64,000 nucleotides of DNA from Escherichia coli (GCF_024223415.1 NZ_CP100500.1); one strand, 5' to 3'; counted from the first letter of the stretch, positions 12,502 to 48,660 are shown. The notes: generated from the sequence alone by a model not told the origin. Numbers and translations: made by a program.

Positions 12502-14594
12502 CCTCCGGAAGTCAGCCAGGGGTTAACATCGTCAGTTACTGTTTTCTTCCGTTTTTGTTTTTTAACAGGCGTGGATACCGGTTCCGGTGAGGATGACGGT
12601 TCGGTACTGTCCTGGACACACTCCAGCCAGGTTTCCCGGCTCGCCCACTCCGGTGCATCCGGCCAGCGGATCTTTTCGTATCCATGCAGAATGACCAGAG
12701 CCTCGGCATACACCATCAGGTCAAAAGCTTCGTTGGCACCGCGACCCGGCTTACTCCATTTCCCGTCACTGCTCCGCTCTTCATACGTCAGTTCGTCGTA
12801 AAACCAGCTCCCCAGCCAGTCAGGGAAATGCACATAGCCGGGACCTGGCGAGTCACGCCATAACGCGTTATTCACCCGGTCTTTCAGTGCATCCGTCTGA
12901 AGAAGCCAGAGCGGCACATCACCTGCGGCCTGCGCCCGTCGGCCCGTTCGTCCGGTGTTATCAGGGAATGTACGGGTGATCAGTTTTGCGCGCCGGATGC
13001 TGTCGCCCTTAAACAGGTAAATACGTTTACCAAGGCCATCACGACGGCAACGACGCCAGAATTTATAGGCATTATCAGTGACCCCGTCTTCACCGCCGGA
13101 GTCCACCGCCATTGCCATCAGTCGCATTTGTTGAGAAGGATCGGAGGCCAGCGGCCAGCTTTTATGAAAAACATCCGTCAGCAGGACATCCCAGTCTTCC
13201 GGATAGCTGGCCGGATCAATTCGCTGGCTCTCCCCGTCGCTGTCACCGCGCAATGACTGCGTGATGTTGTAACGATCAATAATCCAGCGTTCGCCACGGC
13301 TGCCATAGCCCGTTACCTGAACCACAAAACGGCGATGACGTCCCGCCTGCACATCCACTGTCGCCACAAGGAAATTAACGCCATCCGGCACACTGCGGGA
13401 AGGAACTGGCTCTGCCCGCTGCTCAAGCAGTTCACTTTTTCGTTGCTCCATGCTGGCGCGGGGAAGATAAGGTAATCCCCAGTCGGTATTGATAACCGTC
13501 TTGAGTGTTTCTTCACTTCCGGTTGTCTCGTATTCCTGTTCTGCAGTAAGCAGTTTGTAAACGAGTTGCGAGAGTGTCTGGTAAGCAGCTGCCGGACCCT
13601 CCATCCAGAATGACGCAATACGTGAGCGTCGGGGATCACCATAACGACTGCCATCCGCATTGATGGATTCACCATCCCGCAACCAGACCCCACGTCCGTT
13701 CAGCTCACGTTTGTGTTCAGGCATAATCCGTCCTGAACAGGAAGGACACTGAATATAAGCCGCCTCACTTGCCAGCACGGGATCGGCAATATCACGGAAA
13801 CCAGCAACCACATCGCCGCAGGGCTGAAAATACTCACCACAGTGTGGACAGGGCCAGTACCAGCGACGGCGATCACCACGGTTATAGAGCGACAGGATCC
13901 CCGTGGTTGGTGGAGCCTCATGCGGTGAAGTCCGTCGCCATTTCACATCCTTCACATCCCTGCCGGGGGAACTCTCCACCAACGTCATACCGCTGGACAT
14001 AAATGTGGTGGTACGTTTTGAGGCAAGAGAGAAGGCATCCCCCTCGCCATCAATATCTTCCGGAAAACGGTCATAATCCGTCAGCGCGACGCATTTATAA
14101 TCTGATGAGGACATGATATTGACTGACGGCCAGCCGATTTTCAGGTAGTTGCCAGCAAGGAATGTTCTGTCATAAACGTTGTTGTCATTTTTGTTCGGAC
14201 TCAGGCGACTGACCACTTCCGGGCTGACGCGAAACGTTCTGGCGAGTCGTTTTTTGGAGTGTTCGCGGGCTTTTTCCTCCGTCATCTGAATGATCAGCAT
14301 ATCAGCAGGATCGCAAATCACGTTGTAAATCACCCAGCCGTCAATCAGGCCGATAGTCTTGCCGGTTCGTGCCGGGCCAACAAATATCACTGCGTCGTAT
14401 TCACGCGAGGCCAGGCAGTTCATCGGCTCAATAACATACGGTGCCACCAGCGGATCCCACGGGACTGAGTTCCCGGCCCCCATGGGCACCCGCATATACT
14501 GAGCAACGGCATCAGCAACCCGCATTCGTCTCGGTGCGCGAAGGATATAACCTGAATCGGTTCGTGCTGCCTTTGCGGTTTCCTGATTCAGCAT
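12492..14594 (-). CDS. Terminase large subunit (lambda gpA family)
   Basis: 700 aa; N-terminal ATPase region with FVGPARTGKT Walker A; lambda A-like. Confidence 0.9.
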   Translation of the reverse strand: MLNQETAKAARTDSGYILRAPRRMRVADAVAQYMRVPMGAGNSVPWDPLVAPYVIEPMNCLASREYDAVIFVGPARTGKTIGLIDGWVIYNVICDPADMLIIQMTEEKAREHSKKRLARTFRVSPEVVSRLSPNKNDNNVYDRTFLAGNYLKIGWPSVNIMSSSDYKCVALTDYDRFPEDIDGEGDAFSLASKRTTTFMSSGMTLVESSPGRDVKDVKWRRTSPHEAPPTTGILSLYNRGDRRRWYWPCPHCGEYFQPCGDVVAGFRDIADPVLASEAAYIQCPSCSGRIMPEHKRELNGRGVWLRDGESINADGSRYGDPRRSRIASFWMEGPAAAYQTLSQLVYKLLTAEQEYETTGSEETLKTVINTDWGLPYLPRASMEQRKSELLEQRAEPVPSRSVPDGVNFLVATVDVQAGRHRRFVVQVTGYGSRGERWIIDRYNITQSLRGDSDGESQRIDPASYPEDWDVLLTDVFHKSWPLASDPSQQMRLMAMAVDSGGEDGVTDNAYKFWRRCRRDGLGKRIYLFKGDSIRRAKLITRTFPDNTGRTGRRAQAAGDVPLWLLQTDALKDRVNNALWRDSPGPGYVHFPDWLGSWFYDELTYEERSSDGKWSKPGRGANEAFDLMVYAEALVILHGYEKIRWPDAPEWASRETWLECVQDSTEPSSSPEPVSTPVKKQKRKKTVTDDVNPWLTSGGWL

Positions 14595-15088
14595 TACTCC
14601 TCCTGCTGTAATTCCTCCTCATCATCCGCACCTGCTTCAGTCACCCGCAGGGCTATCTGATCGCGCAGATCATCAATAATGGACTGAACACGGCTCACAG
14701 CGGCAGGCTGCAGACCGCAGTCACGTTCAAGAATATCCGGTAATGTCTCCAGCACCTGCACGACCGCTTTTGCCCAGATGGCAAACTCCCGTCTGACATC
14801 ACTGGCCGGAATGAGTTGTGCCGTTTCCTGTTCGAACTTAAGACGCTCACGTTCAGACTGATACCAGGCTTTGCGCTCATGCGCGTCCATTTCGCCTTCT
14901 GCAACCGGCGGTGGTAATGCCAGAAATGCCGACACAATATCAACCACCCGATAAAGCTTGAGGTTGCTTTCATGCCCCCCTGCAACGGGTAGATTTTGCA
15001 GCCTTGCCGCAGCAGTCTGGCGATGTACACCTGACAGTGCCGCCAGTTGACTGATATTAAGCGTCAGATTTTTTAACTCTCGATCCAT
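14594..15088 (-). CDS. Terminase small subunit (Nu1-like)
   Basis: 164 aa; N-terminal HTH LNISQLAALSGVHRQTAAARL; acidic C-terminus; precedes terminase large subunit. Confidence 0.75.
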   Translation of the reverse strand: MDRELKNLTLNISQLAALSGVHRQTAAARLQNLPVAGGHESNLKLYRVVDIVSAFLALPPPVAEGEMDAHERKAWYQSERERLKFEQETAQLIPASDVRREFAIWAKAVVQVLETLPDILERDCGLQPAAVSRVQSIIDDLRDQIALRVTEAGADDEEELQQEE

Positions 15089-15409
15089 ACCCGCTCCAGA
15101 ATGTTTTAAACATGCATCTTGCGAACAACTTTAGGCAAACGGTGTTAGTGATGAACAAAAAACAATCAAAATCGACACTACAAAAATAAAACCACTGTAA
15201 TATCAATCTATTACAGTAGTGGTGATGACGAATGAAATTTCAAAAACTAGCCTTTTTCCGCGATGCTCCCGCCCCGTGCCAGCCTCCCCCATTAGGAGGA
15301 CCCACATTTCTTATCAGGTATTCAAAACGCCCACCTCAATGAGGTCGGATCAGATTGATGTGAGAGAACAAATCATGCAAACTATCTAAGCTCATGGTAA
15401 GAAGTAGCA

Positions 15410-15835
15410 GTGACAAGAGGATATTTCCTGATGGAGCAGGCAAATATTTTTCAAGAGATATTCGAACACGTTAGAAGTAATTTATACTTCCCATGGTTTT
15501 ACTCCGAATTAAAACGCCATAATATTGCGCATTATATTTATTATCTGGCTACTGATAATATAAGACTAATTACTCATGATGATAATGTTTTATTAGTTCG
15601 AGGCAGTAGAGGACTTGTGAAAGTTAGCACATCAAAAAAACCAGAGTTAATTAAAGAAGCAGCCAGGAATCTTATATCAGGTAAATCTACATTTCACCAA
15701 TATCGTCTCACTTTAGCAAAAGCAGGTGTTTATCGCTGGATTACAGATATAGATAAAAACATACGGTTTTACTATTCGTTTGATCACGATCTTTTGTACA
15801 TGGAAGATGTTGAAAATAACAGACCATTAATATAG
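15410..15835 (+). CDS. Hypothetical protein (AT-rich orphan cargo gene)
   Basis: 141 aa ORF on opposite strand to the late operon in an AT-rich island between Rz and terminase; Tyr/Asn/Ile-rich; no recognisable family. Confidence 0.4.
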   Translation: MTRGYFLMEQANIFQEIFEHVRSNLYFPWFYSELKRHNIAHYIYYLATDNIRLITHDDNVLLVRGSRGLVKVSTSKKPELIKEAARNLISGKSTFHQYRLTLAKAGVYRWITDIDKNIRFYYSFDHDLLYMEDVENNRPLI

Positions 15836-16152
15836 GAATTAATTAAATCAGCAGTCCGGTTTCATACACCTCTGTACCGGACTAGCTGCATGAAGAGCAA
15901 ACCCGCGAAGCATAAAAGCGGTAAACCCAGGTGTGTATCGTTTTTTATTATTCCCACACACTCGTGCTCCCCGTCGGACTACACTCATGGTTAACGAAGG
16001 AATACAGCGACGATACGGCGCACAGAAATAAATCAGGCATCTATTGACCTCATAAAAACGATGCATTGCCTTGCTATGAGTAATGGTGTCAATTAAAGCT
16101 TTGGCTCTCTCTAGCCCCGGCGAATCTTCAGCGGATTATCCTTGGCCGGTTT

Positions 16153-16617
16153 TTATCTGAGGCATTGCTCTCGAATGTATAGCTGTGCCCCTTCAAGTTG
16201 TTTTTGCATTATTATCAGTCGCTCTCTGAGGGTGAAATAATCCCGTTCAGCGGTGTCTGCCAGTCGGGGGGCGGCTGCATTACCCACGCCGGAGGCGGCG
16301 GTGGCTTCACGCACGGTCTGACAGACTGCTCTGATGCGCAACCGACGACGACCAGCGGCAATATCATCACGAAGAGCATCATTTTCAGCTTTCGCATCAG
16401 CTAATTCCTTCAGGTATTTTGCATCGAGTGCAGTAATATCACGCTGGCGCTGCTGCATGTCAGTAATGGCTGCATTCGCCTGGCTGAGTTTTGTCTTCGC
16501 ATCATCTCTCTGCTCTTTGTAGATGATGGCATTATCGCGGTAATGGGCTATTGCCAGCAACAGCGCACCACTGACCACCAGTAGAATAACAATCACCGCA
16601 TACAGAACCCGTTTCAT
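16153..16617 (-). CDS. Rz i-spanin
   Basis: From MKRVLYAVIVILLVVSG (N-terminal TM) with coiled-coil periplasmic region; Rz1 ORF embedded in +1 frame. Confidence 0.85.
   Translation of the reverse strand: MKRVLYAVIVILLVVSGALLLAIAHYRDNAIIYKEQRDDAKTKLSQANAAITDMQQRQRDITALDAKYLKELADAKAENDALRDDIAAGRRRLRIRAVCQTVREATAASGVGNAAAPRLADTAERDYFTLRERLIIMQKQLEGAQLYIREQCLR
16215..16397 (-). CDS. Rz1 o-spanin lipoprotein (embedded in Rz)
   Basis: 60 aa; lipobox LVVVGC and Pro-rich body PPPPPAWVMQPPPDWQTP; fully nested within Rz in another frame. Confidence 0.8.
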   Translation of the reverse strand: MRKLKMMLFVMILPLVVVGCASEQSVRPCVKPPPPPAWVMQPPPDWQTPLNGIISPSESD

Positions 16618-16914
16618 TTCACCACCAGCGTATCTGAGCAATGAAATAACCGGAGGCCATAATCGCAAACACCAGCCAGAAAAGAATGAATTTCCAGGTG
16701 GATAATTTTTCAGCCATAGTTCGAATCTCCCGAATCAGTTTGCTAAAATCAAACACACTTTCTCCTTTGGCTTTTCCGGAGTCAGGAAACACAAAAAACC
16801 CGACTGTTCGCGCAATCGGGGGTCTGCTCTTATTCACTACTTCAATTCATTTATGACTAATATCGTGTTATCCACCCGCGTTGGCCAACGTCATTTTTCA
16901 GAGAAATATTCTGC

Positions 16915-17448
16915 TTATCTGTCGATCCCCCAGCACACTAACGCGCTCTCCTGATCACGACGAATAACCTGACCGTAACAGTTATTTGAACGAATGCGGC
17001 AATCACGCCCCCTGTCCTTAATCCACCAGCGAATCGCCTCGCATGCACCTTTACGATCACCAGCATTCAGCCGTTTATAAAACGTCGACGGAAAACACTT
17101 ACCGGGGCCAATGTTATAGGGACAAAATGACGCGATACCCGCTTTTTGTGGTTCGGTCAGTGGTACTTTAATATTGCGCTCCACCCATGCCAGAGCCTTA
17201 TCACGCTCAATAGCGTTAACCTGGTCGCATTTTTCCTTCGACAGTTTCATATTGGGAAAAACGGGTTTTCCATCCACCACTGTGGCACCCCGACAGATGG
17301 TCCATATGCCGGAACCATCACGGTATGCCATTGTGTGGTTACCTTCTTTTTCGTCCAGAAACTGGTCAAGTATCTGAGGAGCAGATGCACCAGCACCAAT
17401 CAGCGCCAGAACGGCAGCCGACAGGCCGTATTTGACTTTTACGTTCAT
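16915..17448 (-). CDS. SAR endolysin (phage lysozyme)
   Basis: 177 aa; N-terminal signal-anchor-like hydrophobic stretch YGLSAAVLALIGAGASA followed by lysozyme-like region (…GSGIWTICRG…). Confidence 0.8.
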   Translation of the reverse strand: MNVKVKYGLSAAVLALIGAGASAPQILDQFLDEKEGNHTMAYRDGSGIWTICRGATVVDGKPVFPNMKLSKEKCDQVNAIERDKALAWVERNIKVPLTEPQKAGIASFCPYNIGPGKCFPSTFYKRLNAGDRKGACEAIRWWIKDRGRDCRIRSNNCYGQVIRRDQESALVCWGIDR

Positions 17449-18539: not shown

Positions 18540-19280
18540 TTACATCATGTCTTTTTCTAAAAAAAATCTTGATGAATATTGATGGGGAGGAACACCAAAA
18601 TATCTTCTGAAAACACTTACAAAATATGACGTGTTTTCATAACCGCATATCTCAGCAACTTTTCCAACAGAATATAAATTGTAGCTTAATAACCTTTCCG
18701 CCATCACCATTCGCTCTTCAAGAATTAACTTACTAAATGATAAGCCTTCGTGCTTTAATTTTCTTTTTAACAGGCTTTCACTCAGATACAGTCTTGAAGA
18801 TATATCACAAAGTCTCCATGCTGCAGATATATCCGTGTGAATAATAGCCTTAACTTTACTTCCTAAACTATTAAGACATCCAAATAAAAAACTTTGCACT
18901 GTTTTCTCTGAAGATAAGATAGCAAGACATGCAAGTGATATTTGATTTCTAACAAAATCCACAGTTCTGCCATCAAAATTCAAGCATGCAATCAAATTCT
19001 TTAACAATGAAAAATCTTCACATTCCACCATCAAGTATGCCGGATAAAACCTTCTTACAGAAAAAGGTGAGAGTGTGTTGTTTTTAAAGAAATCATTAAC
19101 TGTTTTCTCTTCAACATCTACGATCATTACATGATCTATATTTGATGAAAAAAAATCTTTTAAATTGTAATCAATGAGAACAGCACTTCCTTTTTTAAAC
19201 AAAATATCTTCTTTACCAATTCGGACATCAAACGAGTTCAACACCAAAATGATAGAACATATGTATGGCATATTATCCAC
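18540..19280 (-). CDS. AraC-family transcriptional regulator
   Basis: 246 aa; C-terminal AraC HTH (...VGKVAEICGYENTSYFVSVFRRYFGVPPHQY); AT-rich. Confidence 0.8.
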   Translation of the reverse strand: MDNMPYICSIILVLNSFDVRIGKEDILFKKGSAVLIDYNLKDFFSSNIDHVMIVDVEEKTVNDFFKNNTLSPFSVRRFYPAYLMVECEDFSLLKNLIACLNFDGRTVDFVRNQISLACLAILSSEKTVQSFLFGCLNSLGSKVKAIIHTDISAAWRLCDISSRLYLSESLLKRKLKHEGLSFSKLILEERMVMAERLLSYNLYSVGKVAEICGYENTSYFVSVFRRYFGVPPHQYSSRFFLEKDMM

Positions 19281-33536: not shown

Positions 33537-33613
33537 TGGCGCGCCCTGCAGGATTCGAACCTGCGGCCCACGACTTAGAAGGTCGTTGCTCTATCCAACT
33601 GAGCTAAGGGCGC
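33537..33613 (-). tRNA. argU: tRNA-Arg (anticodon UCU)
   Basis: 77-nt cloverleaf on minus strand, anticodon loop CTTCTAAGT, T-arm GGTTCGAATCC, 3' CCA; immediately downstream of int. Confidence 0.9.
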
Positions 33614-46832: not shown

Positions 46833-46925
46833 TTGCCGGATGCGGCGTGAACGCCTTATCCGGCCTACACCGCTCCGGTACCCATTGTAGGCCTGATAAG
46901 ACGCGTCAAGCGTCGCATCAGGCAT
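46833..46925. repeat. REP/BIME extragenic palindromic repeats
   Basis: GCCGGATGCGGCGTGAACGCCTTATCCGGCCTAC and GTAGGCCTGATAAGACGCG...CGCATCAGGC REP-type palindromes between purK and ybcF. Confidence 0.65.
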
Positions 46926-46954
46926 GGTGCACCGATTGCTGGATGCTCTCATCA

Positions 46955-47848
46955 CTACAGCGAAATACAGGTCCCCGCTTCGCCCGCCAGCGTCTCTTCA
47001 ATTCGCGATAACGCCCCAATCCACGCGGGTTTACCACGGCTTCTGACATAACCACTCACCGCCGTTACCTTCGGCCCCATCGAACCATCGGCTTTGGCAA
47101 ATGGCGCTAACTCATCCGGTGTGGCATGGCGAATGGCACGTTGCTGCGGCGTTCCCCAGTTTTCATATACCGCATCAGCATCGGTGAGGATCACCAGTCC
47201 ATCTGCATTAATCTGCTCGGCGAGCAACGCAGCGGCGAGATCTTTATCAATCACCGCTTCACTCCCTGCTCCGTCATCCGTCACAGGCACACCGCCGCCG
47301 CCGCTGCAAATCACCACATGCCCCTCTTTGAGCAACAACTCGATGGCTTCGCTGTCGAGAATTTTACGCGGTTGCGGAGACGCCACCACCCGGCGCAAAT
47401 ATTTACCATCACGTTTCATCTGCCAGCCGTAAGCCGCTTCCAGTGCCTCTTGTTCTTCTGGCTGATAAACCGGACCAATAAATTTCTCTGGCTGCAAAAA
47501 CGCCGGATCATCAGGCGAAACTTCAATGCGCGTCAGCACCGTCGTGACAGGCGGCATCTGCGGCTGTGCGCTCAAACTCTGCGCCAGCATATAGCCAATC
47601 ATCCCCTGACTTTCTGCCACCAGCACATCCAGCGGATACGGTTCTACCTCTTTCCACGCCAGATTCTGCAATGCCAGCAACCCCACCTGCGGCCCGTTGC
47701 CGTGAACAATCGCCAGCCGATAAGAACGGGCCAGGCGCGCCAGCGCGGGTACAGCACTGGCGATATTGCGATATTGATTTTCTGCCGTCAGCGCCTCACC
47801 GCGCTGGAGTAAGGCGTTGCCCCCAAGAGCTACAACCAGTGTTTTCAT
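46955..47848 (-). CDS. ybcF: Carbamate kinase-like protein YbcF
   Basis: From [18 protein letters not shown]; amino-acid kinase family. Confidence 0.85.
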
Positions 47849-48660
47849 GGTTTTCCTTGTAATAATTGTTGGCCAAGCCAAAACCCCAGCAGCGTATCTG
47901 CCCCTGACGTATGCCCCAGCGCCAGCAGCGAATCAATCGCAACAGCGGTACGTTTCGGGCAACTCAGAGCATGAACAAAGTGCAGGAGTGGCGAGGCGAA
48001 ATATCCTTGCGCGGCATAACGTAAATAACTGACGCTCACCGCTGTGGTAACGAGTTGCAGATTGTCGGAACAGGCAAAAAACGGACGACCGGAGCGCGCA
48101 TCTAAAGCGCCATAATACCAGGCCGCCAGCAGCATTCCGCTCAGCGTGTCATCATGACTCGGCGTTAATCCGGGGCCTTTACCCAGCCAGTGCCGCCAGT
48201 CGGTCTTAACGCCATTGAGCGCGGCCTGAAAACAGTGACGAAACTGGCGTAACTCAGCAGGCAGCGGATCGCTTGCCGCCAACGCCAGTGGCCCGAAAAG
48301 CCCGTTTTCCTCCGCGCGTTGCATCCATGCAGCTGCAAGTGGTTGAGGATGCGCAGGCGGCGTAATACGCAGCAAACAATAACGCTGTGGCTGTTTAACC
48401 GTGAAACGCCCGAGGCGAATCCCTTGAGCCACAACCTGTGGTCGTTCATTGCCGCATAATCCACCGCATAACGCATCGAATTGCGCACGGCGAAGCACCC
48501 ATCCTCCGGGGCCGAAACCACTACCCTGACGATGCAGCGTTAACAGTTCGCCGCTTTCCGTCATCAGGTTAATCGCCCGCCGCCACACTCCCGCTAACCG
48601 CCAGGACTGGCGATAATTCGGTGCGCTACTACTGGCAAGCAGAGGATGGATGATCGTCAT
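47845..48660 (-). CDS. ylbF: DUF2877-family protein YlbF
   Basis: From [18 protein letters not shown]; start overlaps ybcF by 4 nt. Confidence 0.8.

What the first reader, a model, noticed from the sequence alone, without database searches (positions are those of the whole stretch)
15089..16152. AT-rich orphan gene on the opposite strand between spanins and terminase, next to the probable cos region
The 15.1-16.1 kb stretch is markedly more AT-rich than flanking phage genes and carries a 141-aa Tyr/Asn/Ile-rich ORF (15410-15835) transcribed against the late operon, followed by a stem-loop (about 15858-15890). This is the classical slot for lysogenic-conversion genes such as lambda bor, and the protein has no obvious family. 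The upstream non-coding stretch (15089-15409) contains a palindrome (15193-15223) and is where cos would be expected.
Basis: partly seen in the sequence, partly recalled or inferred. Interest (0 to 1): 0.45.

Follow-up and report, generated by a model that had tools for sequence, protein, structure and literature searches.

The report
Known DUF1398 accessory gene beside cos
The "orphan" gene is an ordinary member of the widespread but still function-less DUF1398 (YcgX/YbcV/YdfO) family, sitting in the same accessory-gene slot next to the DNA-packaging site that phage lambda uses for its own copy.

The parts
14594..15088 (-). Small terminase subunit (DUF1441 type, 164 aa). It is the first gene downstream of cos on the late strand.
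   Evidence: Pfam DUF1441 E=2.7e-41. PHROG 141 'terminase small subunit' E=7e-74. 99% identical to the mEp460 small terminase gene.
15089..15262 (-). cosB-equivalent segment between cosN and the small terminase start. This assignment is inferred from position and linkage.
   Evidence: It occupies the same position as lambda cosB. The mature left end would put the terminase ATG at base 187, against 191 in lambda. The segment is shared at 92-94% by phages with the same 164-aa terminase allele (mEp460, phi458) and, per the alignment, by E. coli 55989. It is replaced in NZ_AP021933, which has a different DUF1441 allele, although cosN and cosQ stay conserved.
15191..15220 (-). Imperfect palindrome with 12-nt arms and a 6-nt loop. 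It is a candidate terminase-binding repeat within cosB. On the late strand it also looks like a hairpin followed by a T-run.
   Evidence: Repeat I5. Terminator-like hit on the - strand. -14.4 kcal/mol, z = -3.9. It segregates with the terminase allele.
15263..15274 (-). Predicted 12-nt cohesive end, GGGCGGGAGCAT on the - strand, at the centre of cosN.
   Evidence: Aligns with lambda ACG|GGGCGGCGACCT|CGCGG. The two ends of the linear record LR595868.1 (mEp460_4F5) map to window ~15279, within about 5 nt. The motif is present in 101 of 120 related loci.
15297..15303 (-). cosQ-like heptamer GGGTCCT, 22 nt upstream of the predicted nick. Lambda has the same heptamer 23 nt upstream.
   Evidence: The identification of lambda cosQ with this heptamer at bp 48473-48479 is from my own knowledge of the lambda literature.
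15338..15383 (+). Conserved upstream region of the DUF1398 gene. It holds a homologue (GGTCGGATC, 15343-15351) of the PdhR-box region upstream of K-12 ybcV. A weak promoter-like pair follows: TTGATG (15355-15360), 17 nt, CAAACT (15378-15383).
   Evidence: The alignment of four DUF1398 upstream regions (window, K-12 ybcV, lambda lambdap78, E. coli 55989) conserves CAGATTGA...ATGCAAACTA. PdhR binding and 10-fold lower ybcV mRNA in a pdhR mutant are reported in PMC7660256. The promoter is inferred: the consensus scan (at least 9 of 12) did not call it.
15431..15835 (+). DUF1398 family gene of the YcgX subfamily, 134 aa, coordinates including the stop. Soluble, pI 8.8, 16 kDa.
15849..15888 (.). 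Conserved hairpin just past the DUF1398 stop codon. It is the cos-proximal end of the conserved element X.
   Evidence: A compensatory G-C to U-A change is seen in 10 of 26 sequences.
15846..16030 (-). Element X: a conserved non-coding core of about 180 nt between Rz and cos. Its helices are better preserved on the late-operon (-) strand.
   Evidence: Matches in 1256 of 5426 E. coli genomes and in at least 120 IMG/VR contigs. 1-nt indels exclude coding. 98.5% of cells paired, reached by 0 of 500 shuffles, against 86.6% when the same helices are mirrored on the + strand. No Rfam match. The window's own copy folds weakly (z = -0.8).
16153..16668 (-). Rz i-spanin, with Rz1 o-spanin embedded at 16215-16397. 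This is the last gene of the lysis cassette. RefSeq starts the gene at 16617.
   Evidence: Pfam Phage_lysis E=2.6e-48. ORF list. RefSeq annotation of identical DNA.

Best explanation
The 15.1-16.1 kb stretch is the standard right-end module of a lambda-like cos phage. Read on the late (-) strand it runs: Rz/Rz1, conserved non-coding element X, an accessory gene on the opposite strand, cosQ, cosN, cosB, small terminase.

The accessory gene encodes a 134-aa soluble DUF1398 protein of the YcgX subfamily. It has the YdfO fold, two alpha2-beta3 repeats forming a six-stranded sheet with helices packed on it.

These points are shown here: family membership, fold, position, orientation, compositional oddity, presence/absence polymorphism among otherwise similar phages, and intactness under apparent purifying selection.

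The working model is inferred. The gene is a moron. It would be transcribed on its own from a weak, activator-dependent promoter (TTGATG-17-CAAACT, next to a PdhR-box homologue) in the lysogen. It may be subject to xenogeneic silencing, because it is AT-rich and its relative ycgX is de-repressed in an hha/ydgT mutant. Antisense late transcription would shut it off during lytic growth.

Its product most likely acts in the cytoplasm by binding a host protein or small ligand, to adjust host stress physiology rather than phage morphogenesis. The biochemical activity of the family is unknown.

cos is assigned by homology. Terminase would nick around GGGCGGGAGCAT (15263-15274), with cosQ at 15297-15303, and with cosB (including the 15191-15220 palindrome) as the allele-specific small-terminase binding region.

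The confidence given (0.75) is for the whole picture: a DUF1398 accessory gene in the lambda slot, plus lambda-type cos. Family membership and cos placement alone are above 0.9. The specific mode of action is about 0.3.
For: Family and fold:
- Pfam 139.7 bits against a cut-off of 22, full-length.
- PDB 2HH8 E=1e-40.
- AlphaFold2 pLDDT 91.4.
- 66% gapless identity to YcgX and 50% to lambda lambdap78.

Slot:
- Lambda and DLP12 have the same layout.
- In 50 of 120 related IMG/VR loci, DUF1398 lies on the cos side of X, always in this orientation.
- All 43 phage records with the gene are lambda-like. In the complete linear, cos-ordered records shown, the gene lies near the right end.

Accessory nature:
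- The gene is absent from mEp460-type phages that share the same terminase allele and cosB. mEp460 and mEp460_4F5 also carry X.
- CRISPRi knock-down of lambdap78 does not affect lambda plaquing (PMC10695390).
- GC is 0.32.

Real gene:
- The ORF is intact in 49 of 50 loci.
- 5 synonymous against 2 conservative non-synonymous differences to a 98% allele.

Cytoplasmic location:
- Maximum Kyte-Doolittle 19-residue average is 0.34, with no signal sequence.

Host-linked regulation of paralogues:
- PdhR activates ybcV (PMC7660256).
- ydfO is stress-inducible, and its overexpression is reported to raise oxidative-stress resistance (PMC4077768).
- ycgX is up-regulated in an hha/ydgT mutant (PMC3686432).
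- The upstream region is conserved across alleles.

cos:
- Alignment to the lambda junction.
- The motif is unique in the window, with 0 of 100 shuffles matching, and is present in 101 of 120 related loci.
- The ends of a linear phage record map here.
Against: - No expression data exist for this prophage.
- The proposed promoter matches only 7 of 12 consensus positions and was not called by the scan.
- The PdhR-box core is degraded here: GGTCGGATC against GGTCAGACC in K-12.
- There is no canonical terminator after the ORF.
- A 2025 in-silico survey could draw no inference for ycgX (PMC12356324).
- Overexpression phenotypes of the paralogues are pleiotropic (glycogen, H2O2) and may be indirect.
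- The cos ends are predicted, not measured. The mEp460_4F5 record starts 4 nt before the predicted nick and lacks 3 nt of the cohesive-end equivalent.
Confidence: 0.75

Rival explanations
1. The DUF1398 protein is a superinfection-exclusion or anti-phage (or anti-defence) factor. It would be expressed from the prophage and act on incoming phages rather than on host physiology.
For: Lysis-to-cos morons in lambdoid prophages often affect phage or host interactions. The gene is polymorphic among related prophages. It is diversified into sub-families of 50-66% identity. It is carried by temperate phages only.
Confidence: 0.15
2. It is a virion or morphogenesis protein, as its database labels suggest ('head protein', PHROG 413; 'putative envelope protein', older lambda records).
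For: PHROG 413 carries the category 'head and packaging'. Lambda lambdap78 is labelled 'head protein' in RefSeq. The gene lies next to the packaging genes.
Against: It is transcribed against the late operon. It is missing from plaque-forming relatives with the same terminase module. It is non-essential in the lambda CRISPRi screen. It has no membrane or signal segment. Chromosomal and non-phage homologues exist. The labels appear to be propagated names without any test.
Confidence: 0.03
3. The ORF is a decaying relic with no function. What selection keeps in this interval is the non-coding DNA: cos and element X.
For: The gene is dispensable for the phage. No function has been found for any paralogue. 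The exact allele is rare, at 95% identity or more in only 8 of 5426 genomes.
Against: The ORF is full-length in all 8 genomes and in 49 of 50 metagenomic loci. Changes between alleles are mostly synonymous. The model is confident and matches the experimental fold. Alignment to YcgX at 66% identity is gapless, with a conserved C-terminus.
Confidence: 0.07

Closest known systems
YcgX (E. coli chromosomal DUF1398 protein, between bluR and iraM)
   Same: Same length (134 aa), 66% identity without gaps, same C-terminus EDVENN(R/K)PLI. 70% nucleotide identity over the whole gene. Same Pfam family.
   Different: YcgX is a near-universal chromosomal gene, matched at 80% coverage or more in 5010 of 5426 genomes, and lies outside an intact prophage. 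The window copy sits in an apparently complete lambdoid prophage next to cos, and this allele occurs in only 8 genomes.
Lambda lambdap78, DLP12 YbcV and Qin YdfO (PDB 2HH8)
   Same: Same family and fold. Lambda and DLP12 carry the gene in the same slot, between the spanins and cos, on the strand opposite the late operon, with a homologous upstream region.
   Different: Only about 48-50% identical, so a different sub-family. In lambda and DLP12 the gene is flanked by bor on one side and by ybcW/lambdap79 on the other. Both neighbours are missing here. The terminase here is the DUF1441 type, not Nu1.
Lambda cos (cosQ-cosN-cosB)
   Same: GGGTCCT heptamer, then 22-23 nt, then ACGGGGCGG...CGCGG. 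The small terminase ATG follows about 187-191 nt after the predicted left end. An A/T-rich cosB with repeats lies in between.
   Different: The predicted cohesive end is GGGCGGGAGCAT, against GGGCGGCGACCT in lambda, a difference at 4 of 12 positions. The cosB sequence is unrelated to lambda's R sites and carries one 12-bp-arm palindrome. It goes with a DUF1441 small subunit. The ends have not been determined physically.
Lambda Bor
   Same: Same general interval (lysis cassette to cos) and same antisense orientation. In related phages bor occupies the Rz side of element X and DUF1398 the cos side.
   Different: No sequence relation: tblastn of Bor against 14500-17000 gave only E=4.4. Bor is an outer-membrane lipoprotein, whereas this protein has no signal peptide. 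A serum-resistance role is therefore not expected.

Membership tests
DUF1398 (Pfam PF07166; YdfO-like fold) | Score above Pfam's gathering threshold, over the whole domain model | tested here: met
   139.7 bits against a cut-off of 22; profile positions 1-119 of 119 matched.
DUF1398 (Pfam PF07166; YdfO-like fold) | Same three-dimensional fold as the solved member YdfO (2HH8) | tested here: met
DUF1398 (Pfam PF07166; YdfO-like fold) | Stand-alone single-domain protein of about 130-140 aa | tested here: met
   134 aa. Full-length homologues are 128-148 aa. The multi-kDa 'hits' are repetitive adhesins and spurious.
Lambdoid moron / lysogenic-conversion gene | Inserted between phage modules, on its own transcription unit, not co-oriented with the late operon | tested here: met
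   The gene is on the + strand between Rz (-) and the small terminase (-). The arrangement is the same in lambda and DLP12.
Lambdoid moron / lysogenic-conversion gene | Own promoter and terminator | tested here: inconclusive
   There is only a weak conserved TTGATG-17-CAAACT pair, which the scan did not call. The hairpin after the stop lacks a U-tract.
Lambdoid moron / lysogenic-conversion gene | Base composition unlike the flanking phage genes | tested here: met
   GC 0.323, against 0.543 (terminase) and 0.487 (Rz-R); lowest ~1% of windows.
Lambdoid moron / lysogenic-conversion gene | Present or absent among otherwise closely related phages; dispensable for lytic growth | tested here: met
   50 of 120 related loci carry it, and the mEp460 and phi458 types lack it. 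Dispensability comes from the literature for the lambda homologue only (PMC10695390).
Lambdoid moron / lysogenic-conversion gene | Expressed in the lysogen and changes a host phenotype | not testable with these tools
   This needs transcriptomics and phenotyping. Only indirect data on K-12 paralogues are available.
Lambda-type cos site | cosN sequence with a G/C-rich 12-nt cohesive end | tested here: met
   ACG|GGGCGGGAGCAT|CGCGG aligns with the lambda junction. This is similarity only; nicking was not shown.
Lambda-type cos site | cosQ heptamer about 20-25 nt upstream of cosN | tested here: met
   GGGTCCT lies 22 nt upstream, against 23 in lambda. The combined motif is unique in the window, with 0 of 100 shuffles matching.
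Lambda-type cos site | cosB: small-terminase binding repeats between cosN and the terminase gene | tested here: inconclusive
   The palindrome 15191-15220 and related CACTAC-containing copies are present. The segment co-varies with the terminase allele. Binding was not tested.
Lambda-type cos site | Physical genome ends at this position | tested here: inconclusive
   The two ends of the linear record LR595868.1 map within about 5 nt of the predicted nick. Whether those are true virion ends is not stated in the record.
Bor family | Sequence similarity to lambda Bor; lipoprotein signal | tested here: not met
   tblastn gave E=4.4 only. There is no hydrophobic N-terminus.
Known anti-phage defence systems (PADLOC-DB 2.0) | Match to any defence protein model | tested here: not met
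   No family at E up to 1.
Rfam RNA families (for element X and the hairpins) | Match at or near the gathering score | tested here: not met
   Only a tRNA elsewhere in the window reached gathering. In 14900-16400 only two chance-level hits appeared, at E=1.2 and 4.4.

The most novel reading that the evidence does not exclude
The most novel reading concerns the conserved ~180-nt element X (window ~15846-16030) just past the gene, not the gene itself.

X would be an undescribed structured RNA carried on the late transcript of lambdoid phages between the lysis cassette and cos. One possible role is an RNase III-type processing or stability site that separates lysis mRNA from morphogenesis mRNA.

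The DUF1398 and bor morons insert on its two sides. A secondary possibility is that DUF1398 proteins are ligand- or peptide-binding platforms through which prophages tune host stress responses.
Probability: 0.3. Interest if true: 0.5.

Novelty: already known. Interest (0 to 1): 0.18.

Why it matters
For the finding as written, little is new. The gene belongs to a named family, it is already annotated in RefSeq, and lambda itself carries a copy in the same slot.

Three things are still useful:
- The widely propagated labels for this family ('head protein', 'putative envelope protein') have no support and should not be trusted.
- cos of this DUF1441-terminase prophage group can be placed to within a few bases by homology. 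That helps to define prophage ends and to predict cos compatibility.
- DUF1398 remains one of the commonest function-less protein families in E. coli, present in about 98% of complete genomes. Its fixed position next to cos in lambda-like phages gives a clean genetic handle for finding what it does.

The neighbouring conserved non-coding element may deserve its own study.

Tried and rejected
- Rfam at gathering score on the whole window, and at E up to 5 on 14900-16400: nothing relevant.
- PADLOC: no hit.
- BFVD fold search: no match at E of 0.001 or better.
- The afdb50 fold library was not available.
- PDB profile search returned only 2HH8.
- Large multi-stretch hits in the representative search (1.1-4.3 kb proteins). 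The three of the five that I scanned are repetitive adhesins, FG-GAP proteins or family-less, so I treated these hits as compositional noise.
- Gene neighbourhoods of distant homologues show no conserved partner.
- Bor remnant in 15836-16152: none.
- Coding potential of element X. The 72-aa ORF at 15848-16066 (-) hits PHROG 6954 'Rz-like spanin', but 1-nt indels between homologues break the frame.
- The 56-aa ORF at 15219-15389 has no family and overlaps cos.
- Known prophage sRNAs as identities for X: AgvB/AsxR (encoded downstream of pR', PMC4104026), PreS/LPR2/6S (lambda preprint), svsR, Pas and HnrS. None is described between Rz and cos. The HnrS sequence could not be compared directly.
- The record starts of mEp460, Ayreon and ev081 are simply the terminase CDS, so they give no evidence for cos.
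- The consensus promoter scan found no site upstream of the ORF.

Full report
**What is in the sequence.** The ORF list gives 15410-15835 (+), 141 aa from a GTG. It is flanked on the - strand by the small terminase (14594-15088) and by Rz (16153-16668), with Rz1 embedded at 16215-16397. GC falls to 0.33-0.36 across 15300-15900, against 0.50-0.57 on either side. The ORF itself is 0.323 GC, in the lowest 1% of equal-sized windows of the 64 kb. The hairpin after the ORF is real: arms 15853-15860 and 15876-15883, -19 kcal/mol, z = -3.9. So is the palindrome at 15191-15220, with 12-nt arms. The working start codon is almost certainly ATG 15431, giving 134 aa. Every homologue starts with the equivalent M-(E/D/A)-Q. 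RefSeq annotates identical DNA that way. AAGAGGA sits 9 nt upstream.

**The protein is not an orphan.** It matches Pfam DUF1398 (PF07166) at E=5.8e-41 over the whole model. It matches the NMR structure of E. coli YdfO (2HH8) at E=1e-40.
- An AlphaFold2 model built on 20 diverse homologues is confident (pLDDT 91.4). It shows two alpha2-beta3 repeats.
- The closest relative is the chromosomal gene ycgX: 70% nucleotide identity over all 405 nt, and 66% amino-acid identity without a gap.
- Related DNA is found in 5325 of 5426 complete E. coli genomes. The exact allele (95% or more) occurs in only eight.
- RefSeq already calls the identical protein (WP_024223431.1) a DUF1398 family protein.

**The slot.** Lambda carries a DUF1398 gene, lambdap78 (47042-47575, complement), which is 50% identical. 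It lies between bor and cos on the strand opposite the late operon. DLP12 in K-12 has rzpD-borD-ybcV-ybcW-ylcI-nohD.
- Among 120 IMG/VR contigs that share the neighbouring conserved element, 50 have a DUF1398 gene. It is always in this orientation and always on the cos side of that element.
- 33 contigs have bor on the Rz side, and about 20 have neither gene.
- Only 43 of 50,697 phage records carry the family, and all are lambda-like.
- Phages with the same small-terminase allele and cosB as the window (mEp460, mEp460_4F5, phi458) lack the gene. CRISPRi knock-down of lambdap78 has no effect on lambda plaquing (PMC10695390). The gene is therefore accessory to the phage.
- It is nevertheless kept intact: 49 of 50 loci are intact, and a 98% allele differs by 5 synonymous and 2 conservative changes.

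**What it probably does.** No biochemical activity is known for any member. A 2025 survey of K-12 hypothetical proteins could draw no inference for ycgX (PMC12356324).
- The protein has no signal peptide or hydrophobic segment. The old labels 'putative envelope protein' and 'head protein' (PHROG 413, RefSeq lambda) are therefore unsupported. A Bor-like surface role is unlikely.
- There is no PADLOC match, no viral structural analogue and no conserved neighbour outside prophages.
- What does exist is regulation by the host. PdhR binds upstream of ybcV, and ybcV mRNA drops 10-fold in a pdhR mutant (PMC7660256). ydfO is strongly stress-induced, and its overexpression is reported to raise oxidative-stress resistance (PMC4077768). 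ycgX is de-repressed in an hha/ydgT mutant (PMC3686432).
- The upstream regions of the window gene, ybcV, lambdap78 and the 55989 allele align. They share a weak promoter-like pair (window TTGATG 15355-15360, 17 nt, CAAACT 15378-15383). Just upstream lies the homologue of the PdhR-box region, which is degraded here to GGTCGGATC.
- My best reading is a cytoplasmic accessory protein under host control, expressed from the prophage rather than with the late genes, which acts by binding a host component. Family, fold and slot are shown. Expression pattern and mode of action are inferred.

**cos.** On the - strand the window reads TGTGGGTCCTCCTAATGGGGGAGGCTGGCACG|GGGCGGGAGCAT|CGCGGAAAAAGGC. Lambda's joined ends read ACGGGTCCTTTCCGGTGATCCGACAGGTTACG|GGGCGGCGACCT|CGCGGGTTTTCGC.
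- The GGGTCCT heptamer is lambda's cosQ, by my own knowledge of the literature. It lies 22 nt from the predicted nick here, against 23 in lambda.
- The predicted left end would put the small-terminase ATG at base 187, against 191 in lambda.
- The combined pattern occurs once in the window and in none of 100 shuffles. A relaxed version of it is present in 101 of 120 related loci, always on the terminase side.
- Independently, the two ends of the linear record of mEp460_4F5 meet within about 5 nt of this point.
- Downstream of the conserved GGCTAGTTTTTG the sequence is shared only by prophages with the same 164-aa DUF1441 small subunit. It is replaced in NZ_AP021933, which has another allele. 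This is the behaviour expected of cosB. The 15191-15220 palindrome lies in it, so a terminase-binding role is the natural guess.
- On the late strand the palindrome also looks like a hairpin followed by a T-run.

**The rest of the interval (element X).** The 317 bp between the DUF1398 stop and the Rz stop is not junk. Positions 15854-16152 match 1256 E. coli genomes with no annotated feature.
- One-base indels between homologues rule out coding.
- On 26 non-redundant copies, RNAalifold finds a long interrupted stem plus the hairpin on the - strand.
- 98.5% of cells pair, more than in any of 500 shuffles. There are four pairs with double changes.
- The same helices mirrored on the + strand pair in only 86.6% of cells. 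Of 72 variant cells, 59 stay paired on the - strand and 26 on the + strand.
- This points to an RNA structure on the late transcript. The window's own copy is a weak folder (z = -0.8), and the sequences are related, so I treat this as a lead and not as a finding.
- It is not in Rfam. It does not correspond to the prophage sRNAs I could check in the literature.

**Verdict.** The slot and cos interpretations are supported and refined. The 'orphan' claim is refuted. The gene is an already annotated member of a well-populated family of unknown function, so the finding ranks low. The only mildly novel material is the conserved non-coding element beside it.

Noticed in passing
window 15846-16030 (core), extending to 16152: Conserved non-coding element X between Rz and cos. 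It is present in 1256 of 5426 E. coli genomes, in at least 120 viral contigs and in lambda (46867-46979). DUF1398 inserts on its cos side, and bor or a DUF6979 gene on its Rz side. Its helices are preserved on the late-operon strand (98.5% of cells paired, against 86.6% when mirrored). It has no Rfam family.
   Followed up: partly
window 15264 (within the predicted cohesive end): The otherwise 98%-identical prophage in NZ_AP021933 has G where the window has A on the - strand: GGGCGGGAGCGT against GGGCGGGAGCAT. Close relatives would therefore have cohesive ends differing by one base. E. coli 55989 also has the G version.
   Followed up: no
L001 (NZ_OZ121069.1 3379732-3380795) against window 15089-16152: The 1064-bp stretch is 100% identical to a copy inside a heavily degraded DLP12-like prophage remnant, with a truncated DUF1441 gene and many pseudogenes. 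The window's own prophage looks intact and resembles NZ_AP021933 instead. This suggests recent exchange of this module between prophages.
   Followed up: no
window 18540-19280 (-): A second strongly AT-rich island (GC 0.316) holds a 246-aa ORF. The matching RefSeq prophage annotates it as a helix-turn-helix domain protein, located just outside the holin gene and next to a YbgA-family gene. It may be another accessory gene or the prophage boundary.
   Followed up: no
lambda NC_001416.1 47042-47575; PHROG 413: The family is labelled 'head protein' (RefSeq lambda, PHROG 413) or 'putative envelope protein' (older records). Strand, dispensability, chromosomal paralogues and the lack of a signal peptide all speak against both names, which appear to be propagated annotation errors. 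The lambda CDS is also annotated 41 codons too long compared with its homologues.
   Followed up: partly
window 15304-15430 compared with K-12 579595-580833: Lambda and DLP12 have ybcW/lambdap79 (and ylcI in DLP12) between the DUF1398 gene and cos. The window has only 127 bp there, so cosQ directly abuts the promoter region of the DUF1398 gene.
   Followed up: partly
window 33540-33613 (-): This is the only Rfam gathering-level hit in the window, a tRNA gene at 72 bits. It may mark the prophage attachment site at the far end of the element.
   Followed up: no
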